From a virus: a stretch of DNA of 64,000 nucleotides. Made by a program: the position numbers and the translations under genes. The notes beneath the pieces are model-generated. The model was not told the origin of the DNA. It did no database searches and saw only the letters and a list, made by a program, of their open reading frames with translations. Below, piece after piece: positions 31,767-36,780 of the stretch (position 1 is its first letter; the number at the start of each line of letters is the position of its first letter). Location: IMG/VR virus record IMGVR_UViG_3300047509_000088, positions 1 through 64,000 of that record; one strand, given 5' to 3'.

Positions 31767-34712
31767 CTAAATCCTATACCCCTGATGCCCTTCCGCAATC
31801 CAGATGAGCGTCTTCTTGGCGCGGGTGGCGGCGACATAAAAGACCCGATTTTCGCCGTCTGGATTGTCGTTATATTCCTGGTAGGTTCGGCGGGTCATAC
31901 TAACTGAGGTGGCGACGTGGTCGGCCTCCTCGCCCTTGGCGCCGTGAATAGTCGAGATCTCCACTCGCGGCTTCTCGGATAGACTAGCCAGACCGAACCG
32001 CTTGACAATCCGTTTGAGGTATTTCCGCTCATACGGCTCCATCCGGATTGCCTCAAGGGGATCATTCCAGAGCTGTTCGGTTAGACGAGAAGAGGCGCCG
32101 GCCTTCATCAGGTCGGGAAGACCATACAGGTGCGACCACTGCGTCCTGTCCACTTCCCACTGATCGGGATAGATCTGGCGCATTAGTTGCTTGAGGCGGC
32201 CCTGTCGAACCAGCCGACCCGAATTGAGTTCGGCGGCAACCTTGATCGCCAAGCCTCGATCCCGAGTCGGATCGGGGATTCCCTGGCTGGACGTTCTGTC
32301 TTTGAACGGTATACCCCCCTCTACGAGCATCCCCCGGGCGACTTCGGCAAACACCCGATTCCTGACCAGGAGCAGCCACGAGTCATCCGCCGTCGCCGCG
32401 ATCCTCTCGGCCAGCCCCATCCCCCCCTCCGGCTTGTCGGCCCAGCCGAACAGACGGTCGACCTCCCCGCCTTCGTAGTGGGGCTCGAAGCCGCCCGGGG
32501 CTCGCTCGGCAACGGGAACTCGATTGATGATCGACAATGCTTCGGCGTGAACGACGGACGGCAGCCGGTATGAATGCGAGAGGTACATCTGGTGGCCGGG
32601 ACGCTCCCAGACCTCAGACGGGATGGCGCCGCTGAAGGCAAAGATGCACTGATTCACATCACCAAAGGCCATGAGATAGTCCGCGTCCTCTTTCCACATG
32701 TCGACTACCCGCCACTGACACGGCGTCAAGTCCTGGCAGTTCTTTACGAGGATTCCATTGGCGAAGAAGTTGTGGTTGTCCTCTACGTCGAGGCAATAAA
32801 CTGACCCATCGAGTTGCGCTGCCTTCGACTGAAGTCGCGGGGCCCCGATGTTTTCCAGCTCAAGTCTGCTTGGCACTGGTCGCTGCATGTTCGAGGAAGA
32901 GGATGACCCAGCGCCTTCCTGGTAGTGCTGAACTGATCGCCACAGATCACGCAGATTCCGGTTATTGTCTCTAGTTTGGCGGGGTGGCGCAATCGAGATT
33001 GTGCCGTCATCAACCTGAATCGTGCTAGCTCGCATTCCCTGGAGTCGCAGATTCGCCACGTTCCGCGATTGCTGATTTGGCGTCCACAGATATCGCAGAA
33101 TCGAGGTGGCGGCTCCATTTTGATCGTTACTTCCGGAAGGGTTGGCCTTAGATCGCCTCGAAGCTTGTAGATGAGAGAGGGATGAATGTATGGTCGAAAT
33201 CGCCTGCGCAATTCGTTGACGTAAGCTGAGGGAAAGTAGATCACCGGACCCTTCTTGGTTTCGTGGATGTGACATCCCAGCCCCATCGATATCAGATGAT
33301 CCCGGACGAACTTCACCTCTTCGCGCGAACGACTGCTCACTGTTATACACATGCTTCTGTCGCGTGATGATCCATCGTCCATGAACCAAACCGCCAAGGC
33401 CAGGTTGTCCACCCACGATAGGAGCTGAGGGGTGATAATCTTGGGGCCATTGGGTCGAGCTATTCGATGAATCTCGGTGAAGACTGGATGGCTCTTGGTG
33501 GAGAAGCTGTAGACAGAGCCGCCGAAAGAGGTGGGGGATGGACCTCTTATGGGGGATGACCACCGAACCAGCATGTCGTGTTTCCACCGAAGGTATCCGA
33601 GTTGTGCTTGCCCCTGAACGAATCGAACTCGTGCGTTCCCCCGTGGACCGGGGCTCAAGCTGATCGAGGCGTCTCCAAGTAGCGATCCGACCACGATTGA
33701 TCGCTCCGACGGTGAGAGCTTCTCCGAGGGGTCGTATGTTTTCACTGGTCAATTGTAGCACGCGGTCCAAGATCTGACACCGCTCCAGTGGAACGTATCC
33801 CTTTCCCAGTACGAGAAGAGGATGGTTGCCCGTGGCTGTGAGCGGTCCCGCCTGGTACAGCGAACGTCCGCGCAACGGATTCATATGCCAGCCAGTAACT
33901 CGTTTGGGTTCGATTGAATCGGTGGCGGGGTTGTAACTGAGGACCGATACTGACAGTCGGCGCTCGACGATCTCTCGGATAGGCATCTGGCTGCCGTTCG
34001 CCAGCGTAACCATCGAATCACCGGGAAGGCACTCGTCAGTGAATATCCATTTGACGGGTGGGCGAAGGCGTTCGCGGAGGACAATTTCAAGCATGTCCGC
34101 GAAATCAAACAGGCCGGAGGATTGCTTCCACTCATGGTACGTATCCGAGAACTTCGCGGCGTCCCTCTCGCCCCAGGGGGTGTCCGTCGGATTCTTGAGG
34201 CGCATCATTCGAACTATCTCAGGGATGGTCTTGACCAGCGCCCGTCTAAGTTCTTCGGCGACGTAGCACCAGTCCCCGAAGGTGACAATCGATCCCACGG
34301 CATACGGATCGTCAACCGACCTTTGATTCAATACGCCCTGGAACTTGTAGCCAGACGACTCGCCGAACTCCCGGAGGCCGGACATGGTCACAACCTGCTC
34401 GGATCTGAGTTGAAGCAATTGAAAGCACGTCGAGTGAATCGTCCTGACCCAGGGCATCTCGTTATCGGTCAGACCGTATTCGGTTGACAGGCGGCGTCTT
34501 AGTTCCTGAGTAGCGTTTCGGGTGAAGGCGTTCACGAGCATTTGGTCGGACGGCAATCCCGCCTTGAGGTGGGCGTCGAGGATCACACCCAGGCTTCGCG
34601 TCTTGCCGCACCCGGGGCTTCCGTAGATCATCACCTCGCGGTCATTGTCGACTTCGCGGTGCAGCTTGAGATCTGGAAGCAGCTCAAGCAGGCGGGCGGT
34701 CAGGGCGCTCAT
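31767..34712 (-). CDS. UvrD/REP-family helicase, intein-containing
   Basis: GSPGCGKT, AFTR.A, TIHS, DE|CQD, GD.NQ.IF.F.GA, SYRLP, STIHGAKG.E.D, YVAATRAK. Confidence 0.93.
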   Translation of the reverse strand: MSALTARLLELLPDLKLHREVDNDREVMIYGSPGCGKTRSLGVILDAHLKAGLPSDQMLVNAFTRNATQELRRRLSTEYGLTDNEMPWVRTIHSTCFQLLQLRSEQVVTMSGLREFGESSGYKFQGVLNQRSVDDPYAVGSIVTFGDWCYVAEELRRALVKTIPEIVRMMRLKNPTDTPWGERDAAKFSDTYHEWKQSSGLFDFADMLEIVLRERLRPPVKWIFTDECLPGDSMVTLANGSQMPIREIVERRLSVSVLSYNPATDSIEPKRVTGWHMNPLRGRSLYQAGPLTATGNHPLLVLGKGYVPLERCQILDRVLQLTSENIRPLGEALTVGAINRGRIATWRRLDQLEPRSTGERTSSIRSGASTTRIPSVETRHAGSVVIPHKRSIPHLFRRLCLQLLHQEPSSLHRDSSNSSTQWPQDYHPSAPIVGGQPGLGGLVHGRWIITRQKHVYNSEQSFARRGEVRPGSSDIDGAGMSHPRNQEGSGDLLSLSLRQRIAQAISTIHSSLSHLQASRRSKANPSGSNDQNGAATSILRYLWTPNQQSRNVANLRLQGMRASTIQVDDGTISIAPPRQTRDNNRNLRDLWRSVQHYQEGAGSSSSSNMQRPVPSRLELENIGAPRLQSKAAQLDGSVYCLDVEDNHNFFANGILVKNCQDLTPCQWRVVDMWKEDADYLMAFGDVNQCIFAFSGAIPSEVWERPGHQMYLSHSYRLPSVVHAEALSIINRVPVAERAPGGFEPHYEGGEVDRLFGWADKPEGGMGLAERIAATADDSWLLLVRNRVFAEVARGMLVEGGIPFKDRTSSQGIPDPTRDRGLAIKVAAELNSGRLVRQGRLKQLMRQIYPDQWEVDRTQWSHLYGLPDLMKAGASSRLTEQLWNDPLEAIRMEPYERKYLKRIVKRFGLASLSEKPRVEISTIHGAKGEEADHVATSVSMTRRTYQEYNDNPDGENRVFYVAATRAKKTLIWIAEGHQGYRI
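32783..33745 (-). CDS. LAGLIDADG homing endonuclease with C-terminal Zn fingers, overprinted inside the intein
   Basis: VVGSLLGDASI and LAVWFMDDGS, YL.WK, PYIHPSL.YKL, CDICG/CVICG; different frame from the helicase. Confidence 0.88.
   Translation of the reverse strand: MKTYDPSEKLSPSERSIVVGSLLGDASISLSPGPRGNARVRFVQGQAQLGYLRWKHDMLVRWSSPIRGPSPTSFGGSVYSFSTKSHPVFTEIHRIARPNGPKIITPQLLSWVDNLALAVWFMDDGSSRDRSMCITVSSRSREEVKFVRDHLISMGLGCHIHETKKGPVIYFPSAYVNELRRRFRPYIHPSLIYKLRGDLRPTLPEVTIKMEPPPRFCDICGRQISNRGTWRICDSRECELARFRLMTAQSRLRHPAKLETITGICVICGDQFSTTRKALGHPLPRTCSDQCQADLSWKTSGPRDFSRRQRNSMGQFIAST
33752..33780 (-). promoter_or_regulatory. Putative promoter for a leaderless HEN transcript
   Basis: GTGTCA-17bp-TACAAT with extended TG, 6 nt before GTG 33745. 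Confidence 0.6.
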
Positions 34713-35487: not shown

Positions 35488-36096
35488 CTAGCTGGAAGAT
35501 CGCGGCTGGATGCGCTCAACCCAGACAGCCGGCGGCTGGCCGGGTAAGGCGGTCAGTCGGGAGACACCAAGCAATCTTAATTTAGCCTTGTAGCGTTTCT
35601 TCGCTGCTTTGGCGCAGATTGAACACCATCGCTCACCGCTTGTTTTGCGTCGATCGAACGGATGACCTCTAGGGCAGACAGTTTTTCGAGCGTTGATAGC
35701 GGCCGGACCTTCTCCGCGAAGTGTATTCTCTCGTTCCGTGACCGGTTCCCCGCAGCAAGGATTGACACACCACGGATTCCGACAGAGATGATCAAGGTCT
35801 AACCCAGTAGGGATCGGGCCAATCATTTTCTCGTAGAGGAATCTATGCAGCAGGACTTGTTTACCCTGAGACGCAATGACAGCATAACGGTCATCGTTTG
35901 ATCTCTTACTATTTGAGCGACTCTTACGAAGCCTCCAGCATCCGTTATTGAGAGGTTCGATCCTCGACATTGCGCGATCAAAAGCAGAAGCCGATTGAGC
36001 CTCGCGTTGAACCCTCCTTCCAAAGGGAAGTTGGTGGCCGTTTACGAATCGTTTGCCCGGGTTCGGAGATTCACCACACCCGCATTCACAGCTCAT
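35488..36096 (-). CDS. Free-standing HNH homing endonuclease
   Basis: CECGCG, GCW, HR..YE...GPIP.GL.LDHLCRN..CVNP...VT.REN, KT.CPRGH; lower GC than flanks. Confidence 0.88.
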   Translation of the reverse strand: MSCECGCGESPNPGKRFVNGHQLPFGRRVQREAQSASAFDRAMSRIEPLNNGCWRLRKSRSNSKRSNDDRYAVIASQGKQVLLHRFLYEKMIGPIPTGLDLDHLCRNPWCVNPCCGEPVTERENTLRGEGPAAINARKTVCPRGHPFDRRKTSGERWCSICAKAAKKRYKAKLRLLGVSRLTALPGQPPAVWVERIQPRSSS

Positions 36097-36584
36097 ATTC
36101 TTTCTACCCATACTTGGGGCGGAAGGCCAGGTAAGGCAACCACGACTTTGCCGGATAGCTTCATAGCTTTCCGGATTGTGTCGGCGGTTCCGTTTGACTC
36201 GCCGTTCCAAAACGCGACTATCACGTCAGACGCCAGGACGATTACGGTATTCCGCTCAAACAGGGTTCGGACATATCGCTCACCCTGGGCGGTGACCTCG
36301 ATAACGTCTCGGCGGTACGTCTGGGCCTTGAGGCGAGCTTCCCGGTCGACCCCCCGAGCGCCTCCAGATATCACATATGCGTCGGGATGAAGCAGTTGTA
36401 TGAGCTTGCCGACCCGGTCAAGCTCGGGATAGTTCCGCGAACCGACGATTCCCACCCGTCTGGCGTCCTTCAAAATGTCAATTGAGGTCTTGATCGAAAA
36501 ACACCCCGCCTCGTCCGCGACCTCGGCGCCGACCTTGTTCATCGCCAGAGCGGGGTTGACCAATCCGGTATTGACGTCGGTCAT
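36093..36584 (-). CDS. SLOG/DprA-like Rossmann-fold protein
   Basis: GIVGSR, ISGGARGVD, RN..IV..SD..VAFWNG.S.GT..TI. Confidence 0.85.
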   Translation of the reverse strand: MTDVNTGLVNPALAMNKVGAEVADEAGCFSIKTSIDILKDARRVGIVGSRNYPELDRVGKLIQLLHPDAYVISGGARGVDREARLKAQTYRRDVIEVTAQGERYVRTLFERNTVIVLASDVIVAFWNGESNGTADTIRKAMKLSGKVVVALPGLPPQVWVERI

Positions 36585-36780
36585 GCTTTCCCATCTCTCA
36601 GGCGGATGATCTCTTGGTACATCTCTTCGATCAGATTTGCGCAGTCGAGCAGGTATTGACCGTCCCCTCGACTGTACGGCGGATTCATCCATCGAACAAT
36701 CAAAGCCCTGCGCCGGAGCCCTTCAATTGTGCGATGAACCTTCTTACCGAACCTGGCTGACCCCGGGGCTGGATACACGG

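What the first reader, a model, noticed from the sequence alone, without database searches (positions are those of the whole stretch)
32739..34031. Intein whose homing endonuclease is overprinted in an alternative frame and has its own internal promoter
Seen: the UvrD intein (CLPGDS...VKN/C) has normal splicing blocks, but its middle is an unrecognisable S/R-rich linker. The same DNA in another frame (33745-32783) encodes a complete 320-aa LAGLIDADG endonuclease with Zn fingers that overlaps block F. Both frames stay open for about 960 nt. Upstream of the HEN GTG lies GTGTCA-17-TACAAT with extended TG and a 6-nt gap, the same geometry as other leaderless promoters here, and TGCTACAAT recurs at 51669-51677. 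Established: intein HENs are normally in frame. Inference: HEN expression is decoupled from helicase translation and splicing. I cannot check whether this architecture has precedent.
Basis: partly seen in the sequence, partly recalled or inferred. Interest (0 to 1): 0.85.

Follow-up and report, generated by a model that had tools for sequence, protein, structure and literature searches.

The report
Helicase intein with out-of-frame homing endonuclease
A soil phage's helicase gene carries a self-splicing protein insert (intein) whose DNA, read one base out of step, also encodes a separate DNA-cutting "homing" enzyme; the two-frame layout is real and kept by selection, but this kind of element has already been described.

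Summary
A 431-residue class-1 intein (window 34031..32739, minus strand) interrupts motif II (DE^CQD) of a 981-aa UvrD-like helicase. A 320-codon LAGLIDADG_2 gene (33745..32783) lies inside it in the +1 frame. Both frames are stop-free; the third frame has 18 stops.

It is not an indel artefact:
- A second soil metagenome covers both frame junctions without indels.
- Seven diverged loci (25-48% HEN identity) have the same +1 layout.

Selection acts on both frames. Synonymous shuffles of the HEN predict 3-23 host-frame stops and none is seen. Conservation follows HEN codon positions. The host-frame middle models as disordered, and the HEN models as an I-SceI/I-WcaI-like fold.

The closest helicase homologues (60-85% identical, 541-554 aa) lack the intein, and two of them read DE-CQD at the empty site.

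The internal leaderless promoter is plausible but unproven. The geometry "TGnTAnnnT, 6 nt, start codon" marks ORF starts in this genome (p about 1e-5). It is not conserved across the family.

The architecture has precedent: Gorbalenya 1998, the cyanobacterial dnaX intein (+2 frame), and actinophage non-canonical inteins. This scan has also reported it many times on other DNA. Verdict: a new member of a known, rare kind.

The parts
31767..34712 (-). Helicase precursor ORF (981 aa): UvrD-like SF1 helicase with the intein inserted in frame
   Evidence: UvrD-helicase E 7e-22, UvrD_C E 6e-11, Intein_splicing spanning residues 236-658.
34032..34712 (-). N-extein (residues 1-227), ending ...FTDE (Walker B / motif II)
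   Evidence: Homologues 60-85% identical to this part are 541-554 aa and have no Intein_splicing domain on record.
32739..34031 (-). Class-1 intein, 431 aa, from Cys1 (CLPGDS) to terminal Asn (ILVKN), followed by Cys+1
   Evidence: C1, T67, H70, H420, N421, F422, F423 and N431 are invariant across 6 family members.
33746..34031 (-). N-terminal splicing (Hint) subdomain, blocks A and B, intein residues 1-~95
   Evidence: AF2 pLDDT 71-92 over residues 1-90. TGNH block B.
32783..33745 (-). Homing endonuclease gene in the +1 frame: GTG start, 320 codons plus TAG stop inside block F
   Evidence: AF2 mean pLDDT 88.6. Best PDB matches I-WcaI 6x1j and I-SceI 1r7m, TM 0.73.
33218..33703 (-). LAGLIDADG_2 nuclease core (HEN residues 15-176) with both motifs (LLGDAS, AVWFMDDGS)
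   Evidence: Pfam PF03161, 118.7 bits. D123, D124 and G125 invariant, G24 and D25 nearly invariant in 40 homologues.
32846..33133 (-). C-terminal tail of the HEN with two CxxC...C...C zinc-ribbon-like units; copy number varies among relatives
   Evidence: Alignment (C265 and C268 invariant, TCSxxC conserved). pLDDT 77-92. Weak match to a phage HNH-endonuclease PHROG, E 7e-4.
32805..33745 (-). Host-frame read-through linker (intein residues ~96-409): stop-free, S/R-rich, predicted disordered. It is the off-frame translation of the HEN gene.
   Evidence: pLDDT below 50 for residues 100-407. Composition. Host-frame identity to relatives is only 14-21%.
32739..32804 (-). C-terminal splicing subdomain, blocks F and G (VYCLDVEDNHNFFANGILVKN)
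   Evidence: pLDDT 85-91. 71% identical to the dnaX intein blocks F/G.
33752..33780 (-). Promoter-like element GTGTCA-17-TG-c-TACAAT, 6 nt upstream of the HEN GTG (candidate leaderless promoter)
   Evidence: Empirical p 0.0012 against all positions in 10 kb. The same extended -10 / 6-nt / start geometry is seen at four other sites in the genome, three of them first start codons of ORFs of 60 aa or more.
31767..32738 (-). C-extein (CQDLTP... to the stop): remainder of helicase motif II and the UvrD_C domain

Best explanation
This is a mobile class-1 intein in motif II (DE^CQD) of a soil phage's UvrD-like helicase. Its homing endonuclease is a nested, separately translated gene in the +1 frame, not an in-frame domain.

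The helicase ribosome reads straight through. It produces a precursor in which the two Hint halves are joined by a ~310-residue disordered linker, the off-frame translation of the HEN gene. The intein then splices out to give a ~550-aa helicase (splicing is inferred).

The HEN is an I-SceI-like double-motif LAGLIDADG_2 enzyme with a zinc-ribbon tail. It starts at its own GTG (33745) in an AT-rich, unstructured, Shine-Dalgarno-less context. In this phage the transcript is probably a leaderless mRNA fired from an extended -10 promoter 6 nt upstream (about 50% likely). Otherwise initiation is internal on the helicase mRNA.

The HEN is inferred to cut intein-less DE-CQD helicase alleles in co-infecting relatives, so that repair copies the element in.

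Selection keeps the host frame open cheaply. HEN codons that begin AA, AG or GA are never preceded by a codon ending in T.
For: Layout and statistics:
- 0 stops in both the HEN and host frames, 18 in the third frame.
- Synonymous shuffles predict 3.4-23 host-frame stops across 7 loci; 0 are observed in all.
- None of 463 AA/AG/GA-initial codons follows an NNT codon, against 15-35% for other codons.

Not an artefact:
- A Logan contig of the source sample spans the region with 0 differences.
- A second study's contigs cover 33557-33792 (HEN start) and 32737-32957 (HEN stop / block F) with 0 differences and no indels.
- The same +1 layout occurs in L002-L006, L027 and L082.

Selection on the HEN frame:
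- Amino-acid identity is 25-45% in the HEN frame against 14-21% in the host frame on the same DNA.
- Nucleotide identity by HEN codon position is 0.52 / 0.60 / 0.33.

Folds:
- HEN pLDDT 88.6, matching I-WcaI and I-SceI.
- The intein flanks are confident, and residues 100-407 have pLDDT below 50.
- The splicing residues are invariant.

Mobility:
- The nearest helicase homologues (60-85% identity) are 541-554 aa without an intein.
- Two of them carry the empty site FTDE-CQDLTP / FLDE-CQDLTP.
- Members sit in UvrD helicases, terminases and a DEAD helicase.

Expression:
- A start codon is conserved, with a HEN-frame stop just upstream and no Shine-Dalgarno sequence.
- The start region is AT-rich and unstructured (Fisher p 4e-5 and 0.0075 over 7 loci).
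- Promoter score p 0.0012.
- The geometry "extended -10, 6 nt, start" hits first start codons of ORFs of 60 aa or more in 4 of 5 occurrences genome-wide, against a 4% background (p 1.3e-5).
Against: - No transcript, protein, splicing or cleavage data exist for this uncultured phage.
- Pfam's Intein_splicing score (27.6) is below its gathering cut-off of 35.8.
- The penultimate intein residue is Lys rather than the usual His, so splicing efficiency is unknown.
- The promoter-like element is one of 2 found in 3.7 kb where about 1.5 are expected by chance.
- Promoter-like boxes are absent at the HEN start in L004, L005, L006 and L082.
- A crude profile using first start codons of all ORFs showed no strong genome-wide leaderless peak.
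- The phage also uses leadered genes with a Shine-Dalgarno sequence.
Confidence: 0.88

Rival explanations
1. The layout is the same, but the HEN has no promoter of its own. It is translated by Shine-Dalgarno-independent internal initiation on the helicase mRNA, at an unstructured AT-rich start region.
For: AT-richness and weak folding at the HEN start are shared across the family. Sigma-70-like boxes are significant only in the window and L002, marginal in L003 and absent in four others. The dnaX-intein preprint and the ShiLan paper also propose initiation from the host transcript.
Against: In this genome the exact extended -10 / 6-nt / start geometry is strongly associated with ORF starts. 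It includes a textbook TTGACT-17-TATCCT-6-ATG example. AT-richness is equally expected for a -10 box.
Confidence: 0.42
2. It is a sequencing or assembly artefact. Two compensating indels hide a canonical in-frame LAGLIDADG intein.
For: The record is a metagenome assembly.
Against: A shifted frame would carry about 11 stops, and it has none. A second soil study shows no indels at either junction. Seven diverged loci share the same +1 offset, a conserved HEN start and a stop in block F. A HEN-frame stop lies 2 codons before the GTG.
Confidence: 0.01
3. The HEN ORF is a decaying relic and the element is effectively a mini-intein with a junk linker. There would be no active homing.
For: No activity data exist. 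Degenerate HENs are common in the intein life cycle (established knowledge).
Against: The ORF is intact in all 8 loci. Catalytic Asp and Gly residues are invariant or nearly so. Conservation follows HEN codon positions. The model is confident. The intein is absent from the closest helicase homologues, so acquisition is recent.
Confidence: 0.06
4. The HEN is joined to the intein by two programmed ribosomal frameshifts (+1, then -1), recreating a canonical bifunctional intein protein.
For: None directly. It would reconcile the layout with the textbook architecture.
Against: Selection keeps the host frame stop-free for about 320 codons, which would be unnecessary under this model. A HEN-frame stop lies immediately upstream of a conserved start codon. 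No slippery motif was noticed when reading the sequence, though none was searched for systematically. The I-SceI-like fold is that of free-standing or intron-encoded enzymes rather than intein-type enzymes.
Confidence: 0.02

Closest known systems
Cyanobacterial DnaX (DNA pol III gamma/tau) intein with an out-of-frame LAGLIDADG endonuclease (Gorbalenya 1998, as cited; Phillips, DeSimone & Gogarten, bioRxiv 10.64898/2026.09.14.751524)
   Same: - A same-strand LAGLIDADG gene is nested in the intein's middle.
- The in-frame segment is predicted disordered.
- Purifying selection acts on the HE frame.
- The HE resembles I-WcaI (6X1J).
- Insertion is right after the Walker-B DE of a P-loop NTPase.
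- I found these dnaX loci myself. Their HEN is a distant homologue of this one (24-31% identity).
   Different: - The frame offset is +2 in dnaX and +1 here.
- The two HEN groups fall in separate clades (SH-aLRT 100 and 98).
- In the dnaX loci the HEN match reached only query residues 1-205, so the zinc-ribbon tail was not detected there.
- The host is a cellular replication gene rather than a phage helicase.
- Hint-domain similarity is only generic (28% over the N-terminal half).
Non-canonical actinobacteriophage inteins (Gosselin, Arsenault & Gogarten, bioRxiv 10.1101/2025.01.02.630785)
   Same: [quoted passage not shown]
- The in-frame middle is unstructured.
- The authors hypothesise that a free-standing HEG invaded an intein.
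- They show evidence of continued spread.
   Different: The types reported there are a frame-3 endonuclease VII-like HEN, and antisense LAGLIDADG and antisense VSR-like HENs. These sit in polymerase, capsid, terminase and thymidylate synthase genes. A same-strand +1 LAGLIDADG_2 in a UvrD-like helicase is not among them.
Fractured genes: split inteins with a free-standing endonuclease gene between the halves (Dassa et al. 2009, PMC2677866)
   Same: A free-standing-type HEG sits at the HEN position of an intein. The HEN 3' end overlaps the C-terminal intein coding region.
   Different: There the host gene is broken into two ORFs and relies on trans-splicing. Here the host frame is continuous and kept stop-free.
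ShiLan-type out-of-frame HNH insertions in mycobacteriophage methylases (PMC11855218)
   Same: An out-of-frame endonuclease with a GTG start and zinc fingers lies inside an insertion that reads through in the host frame. Leaderless-type initiation is proposed.
   Different: That element has no splicing domain and an HNH nuclease. Here intact Hint blocks flank the overlap.
Canonical bifunctional inteins (PI-SceI / VMA1, PI-PfuI)
   Same: They combine a class-1 Hint splicing domain with a LAGLIDADG nuclease at the same insertion point between blocks B and F.
   Different: In canonical inteins the nuclease is an in-frame domain of the same polypeptide. These structures are only weak matches to the HEN model (1jva TMq 0.39 / TMt 0.30, 1dq3 TMq 0.41 / TMt 0.30), against TMq 0.52-0.53 / TMt 0.73 for I-SceI and I-WcaI.

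Membership tests
Class-1 intein (Hint splicing domain) | N-terminal Cys/Ser nucleophile and block B TxxH | tested here: met
   C1, T67 and H70 are invariant in 6 members. CLPGDS and TGNH are present in the window.
Class-1 intein (Hint splicing domain) | C-terminal blocks F/G ending in Asn, followed by a Cys/Ser/Thr +1 extein residue | tested here: met
   VYCLDVEDNHNFFANGILVKN followed by C. N431 is invariant. The penultimate residue is Lys instead of the common His; relatives have His.
Class-1 intein (Hint splicing domain) | Recognised by the curated family model above threshold | tested here: inconclusive
   PF14890 scores 27.6 bits against a cut-off of 35.8. Relatives score 30.9-83.4 bits. 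The AF2 model gives confident Hint flanks.
Class-1 intein (Hint splicing domain) | Protein splicing activity | not testable with these tools
   Inferred only from intact catalytic residues and from the 550-aa intein-less homologues.
LAGLIDADG_2 / I-SceI-like homing endonuclease | Family model hit above threshold | tested here: met
   PF03161 scores 118.7 bits against a cut-off of 25, E 3.2e-34. phrog_11023 E 1.3e-12.
LAGLIDADG_2 / I-SceI-like homing endonuclease | Two LAGLIDADG helices, each ending in a catalytic acidic residue (monomeric double-motif enzyme) | tested here: met
   LLGD25 and FMDD123-124G. D123, D124 and G125 are invariant, and G24 and D25 nearly invariant, in 40 sequences.
LAGLIDADG_2 / I-SceI-like homing endonuclease | Fold match to solved members | tested here: met
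   6x1j E 4e-16 with TMt 0.73; 1r7m E 1e-13 with TMt 0.73.
LAGLIDADG_2 / I-SceI-like homing endonuclease | Site-specific cleavage of the intein-less allele | not testable with these tools
   Candidate target alleles exist (P0047 and P0049, FTDE-CQD / FLDE-CQD).
Non-canonical inteins with a same-strand out-of-frame HEN | Complete HEN ORF inside the intein coding region in another frame of the same strand, with a continuous host frame | tested here: met
Non-canonical inteins with a same-strand out-of-frame HEN | Frame-dependent selection: HEN frame constrained, host frame only kept open | tested here: met
   Codon-position identities 0.52 / 0.60 / 0.33. Identity of 25-45% against 14-21%. Stop avoidance. 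Formal dN/dS was not computed, because no close variants were available.
Non-canonical inteins with a same-strand out-of-frame HEN | Same lineage and frame as the described dnaX example (+2) | tested here: not met
   The offset here is +1. The dnaX loci are +2 and form a separate HEN clade.
Fractured gene / split intein with free-standing HEN | Host gene split into two ORFs by stop and restart around the HEN | tested here: not met
   The host ORF is a single 981-codon frame.

The most novel reading that the evidence does not exclude
The intein carries a complete autonomous transcription unit: an extended -10 promoter firing a leaderless GTG-initiated HEN mRNA from inside its own coding sequence. 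Nuclease timing would then be set independently of the helicase gene. The +1 lineage, whose sister in the HEN tree is a free-standing HEG, would be a stable contiguous intermediate between mini-inteins invaded by free-standing HEGs and the split-intein 'fractured genes'.
Probability: 0.4. Interest if true: 0.5.

Novelty: new member of a known kind. Interest (0 to 1): 0.3.

Why it matters
It adds a well-documented case to a class of element that annotation pipelines miss, because gene callers report only the long host ORF. The case comes with an empty-site allele and a family of at least 39 clusters at 50% identity.

It shows how cheaply two frames can coexist: one synonymous rule suffices (no NNT codon before an AA, AG or GA codon). 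It also shows that out-of-frame LAGLIDADG inteins fall into at least two separate HEN clades with different frame offsets (+1 here, +2 in dnaX).

The promoter geometry gives a concrete, testable hypothesis for how such hidden nucleases are expressed. It does not change the general picture drawn in the 1998, 2025 and 2026 papers.

Tried and rejected
- Megablast of the helicase gene against GenBank phages: no match.
- tblastn of the HEN against phages: only distant hits below 31% identity.
- N-extein pattern search in viral contigs: no relative found.
- Gorbalenya 1998 (PMC147447): not held, so it is cited only through later papers.
The +1 HEN in the 39 census proteins could therefore not be checked at DNA level. 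It is inferred from similarity of the host-frame linker and from split Intein_splicing hits.
- RNA evidence: no RNA holder listed.
- Crude profile of TAnnnT spacing before the first start codon of 110 long ORFs: no clear leaderless peak. It was replaced by the motif-anchored test.
- Formal dN/dS: not run. Relatives are 25-48% identical (synonymous sites saturated), and the only near-identical population shows no differences in the intein.
- Literature search for 'alternative reading frame' plus intein: nothing found until the term 'out-of-frame' was used.
Full report
**What is there**

On the minus strand, ORF 31767..34712 encodes a 981-aa protein. It has UvrD-helicase, AAA_19 and UvrD_C domains, and an Intein_splicing hit spanning residues 236-658. 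The intein runs from Cys228 (CLPGDS) to Asn658 (ILVKN) and is followed by Cys.

A second ORF lies at 33745..32783. It has a GTG start and 320 codons, and is shifted +1 relative to the helicase frame. It matches LAGLIDADG_2 with E 3.2e-34. Across its 963 nt, its own frame and the helicase frame contain no internal stops, while the remaining frame has 18. Its TAG stop lies within the D-V-E codons of intein block F. A HEN-frame TGA lies two codons upstream of its GTG.

**It is not chance and not an artefact**

- Shuffling synonymous codons of the HEN 2000 times gave a mean of 10.8 and a minimum of 3 stops in the helicase frame. The observed number is 0.
- A Logan contig from the probable source soil sample spans the region without differences.
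- Short contigs from a second soil study cover both junctions (33557-33792 and 32737-32957) with no differences or indels.
- The window is an IMG/VR virus record of 95,370 bases, estimated 92% complete.

**The layout is a conserved family trait**

The closest HEN relatives share the layout. They are the viral contigs L002-L006 and L027 and the Nostoc MAG contig L082, at 25-48% identity. In each, the HEN ORF lies entirely inside a 2.6-3.7 kb ORF at the same +1 offset. All seven loci tested (the window, L002-L006 and L027) have 0 host-frame stops where 3.4-23 are expected. In total, 463 HEN codons beginning AA, AG or GA are never preceded by a codon ending in T, the only way to create a host-frame stop. 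Other codons follow NNT 15-35% of the time.

The HEN start codon and the stop in block F are positionally conserved.

Host genes are mostly UvrD-like helicases cut at DE^CQD. They also include T4-type terminases, a DEAD helicase and unassigned proteins.

A profile built only from the host-frame linker found 39 representatives of 50%-identity clusters at E ≤ 1e-3, 22 of them at ≤ 1e-10. The search covered 1.84 billion proteins. All nine representatives examined have a split Intein_splicing hit, and seven of the nine also have UvrD-helicase domains.

**Which frame is under selection**

On the same DNA, identity to the window is 25-45% in the HEN frame and 14-21% in the host frame. Nucleotide identity by HEN codon position is 0.52 / 0.60 / 0.33 in the nuclease core. 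That is the signature of purifying selection on the HEN protein. It is the reverse of what protein-level selection on the host frame would give. The host frame is therefore constrained only to stay open.

**Structures**

The HEN models with mean pLDDT 88.6, and above 93 across the core. Its best matches are I-WcaI (6x1j, E 4e-16) and I-SceI (1r7m), both with TM 0.73. Intein-type PI-SceI and PI-PfuI are weak matches. The acidic residues ending both LAGLIDADG helices are conserved.

The C-terminal ~110 residues carry two CxxC...C...C units. Their copy number varies among relatives. They weakly resemble a module of phage HNH endonucleases.

Read in the host frame, intein residues 1-~95 and 410-431 model confidently. 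Residues 100-407 have pLDDT below 50. All class-1 splicing residues are invariant across members. The window has Lys, not His, before the terminal Asn.

**Mobility**

The nearest homologues of the N-extein are 60-85% identical and 541-554 aa long, with no Intein_splicing domain on record. This matches 981 - 431 = 550. P0047 and P0049 read FTDE-CQDLTP and FLDE-CQDLTP at the empty site. The predicted homing target, with its native Cys, therefore exists in nature. The intein's own relatives sit in far more distant helicases and terminases. The distribution is sporadic, as expected for an active or recently active homing element.

In a tree of 149 HEN homologues, seven of the eight +1 members form a clade (SH-aLRT 98). 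Its sister is a free-standing HEN, L013 (support 92). The thirteen dnaX-intein HENs form a separate clade (support 100). This fits invasion of an intein by a free-standing HEG and separate +1 and +2 lineages. The tree is unrooted, however, and L006 falls outside the clade.

**How the HEN is expressed**

None of the loci has a Shine-Dalgarno sequence before the HEN start. The start region is unusually AT-rich and weakly folded. In the window, ΔG is -2.4 against a mean of -11.3 kcal/mol, and AT is 63% against 42%. Fisher p over 7 loci is 0.0075 for folding and 4e-5 for AT content.

Its score is reached at only 0.12% of positions in 10 kb. L002 (p 0.0017) and L003 (p 0.04) have comparable boxes. 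L004, L005, L006 and L082 do not.

Within this phage genome, TGnTAnnnT followed by exactly 6 nt and an A/GTG occurs five times. Four of those are the first start codon of an ORF of 60 aa or more, against a 4% background (p 1.3e-5). At the 13 other gaps tested (0-5 and 9-15 nt), 0 of 21 occurrences are. One of the four is TTGACT-17-TATCCT-6-ATG.

The recurrence of TGCTACAAT at 51677..51669 lies in front of a leadered gene with a Shine-Dalgarno sequence. I rate a functional internal leaderless promoter at about even odds. No RNA run was available.

**Comparison with what is known**

The architecture has precedent.
- Gorbalenya 1998 is cited as reporting an alternative-ORF endonuclease in the Synechocystis DnaX intein.
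- A September 2026 preprint shows a '+2 ORF' LAGLIDADG HE in cyanobacterial dnaX inteins. It reports a disordered in-frame region and low omega in the HE frame.
- A 2025 preprint reports actinophage inteins with frame-3 EndoVII-like HENs and antisense LAGLIDADG or VSR HENs.
- A 2025 paper describes out-of-frame HNH insertions in methylases.

I recovered the dnaX loci in 16 of 301 cyanobacterial genomes. Their HEN is a distant homologue (24-31% identity), but it sits at offset +2.

This scan has also logged more than 60 similar findings on other DNA. They include a +1 LAGLIDADG_2 helicase intein in a probable cyanophage. I did not test those notes.

**Verdict**

The element is a new member of a known, rare kind: a +1-frame, zinc-ribbon-tailed LAGLIDADG_2 lineage.

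Noticed in passing
window 4244(+), 43266(-), 35429(-), 45631(-), 47762(-): Extended -10 boxes (TGnTAnnnT) lie exactly 6 nt (7 at 47762) before an ATG/GTG that is usually the first start codon of an ORF. This suggests the phage makes several leaderless mRNAs. 35429 has a full TTGACT-17-TATCCT promoter.
   Followed up: partly
window 32071-32682 vs 32737-33792: The second soil metagenome (X2) shows 7 differences in 762 extein bases and 0 in 759 intein bases. This fits recent spread of the intein or extra constraint from dual coding. Depth is only 2.4-3.8x, so it is a weak hint.
   Followed up: no
window 32742-32744 (intein residue 430): The penultimate intein residue is Lys (VKN) where all viral relatives have His (VHN/SHN/ISN). 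P0002 also has KN. The effect on Asn cyclisation is unknown.
   Followed up: no
window 35488-36210 (-): A 240-aa ORF with an HNH-like motif (DLDHLCRNPWCVNP) lies just upstream of the helicase region and overlaps the end of the neighbouring 199-aa gene (36093-36692). It is a second homing-type nuclease nearby.
   Followed up: no
L006:1440-4982 and L027:2-2578: Both host proteins (a terminase and a UvrD-like helicase) appear to carry a second intein in the same ORF, in addition to the +1-overprinted one. This was read from the translations only (CLSRDSQV...VHNC in L006, CSPPDELILT...VVHN in L027).
   Followed up: no
L013:2977-4111: The free-standing sister of the +1 clade (209-aa LAGLIDADG, no zinc tail) sits in tandem with a GIY-YIG-like ORF, between a 53-aa ORF and a 368-aa ORF that I did not identify. 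It may be an intron or a fractured gene.
   Followed up: no
window 51620-51700 (-): The identical TGCTACAAT box precedes a ~55-nt leader and a strong AGGAAAGAGGAAAGAG Shine-Dalgarno region before an ATG. The phage therefore uses both leadered and apparently leaderless starts.
   Followed up: partly
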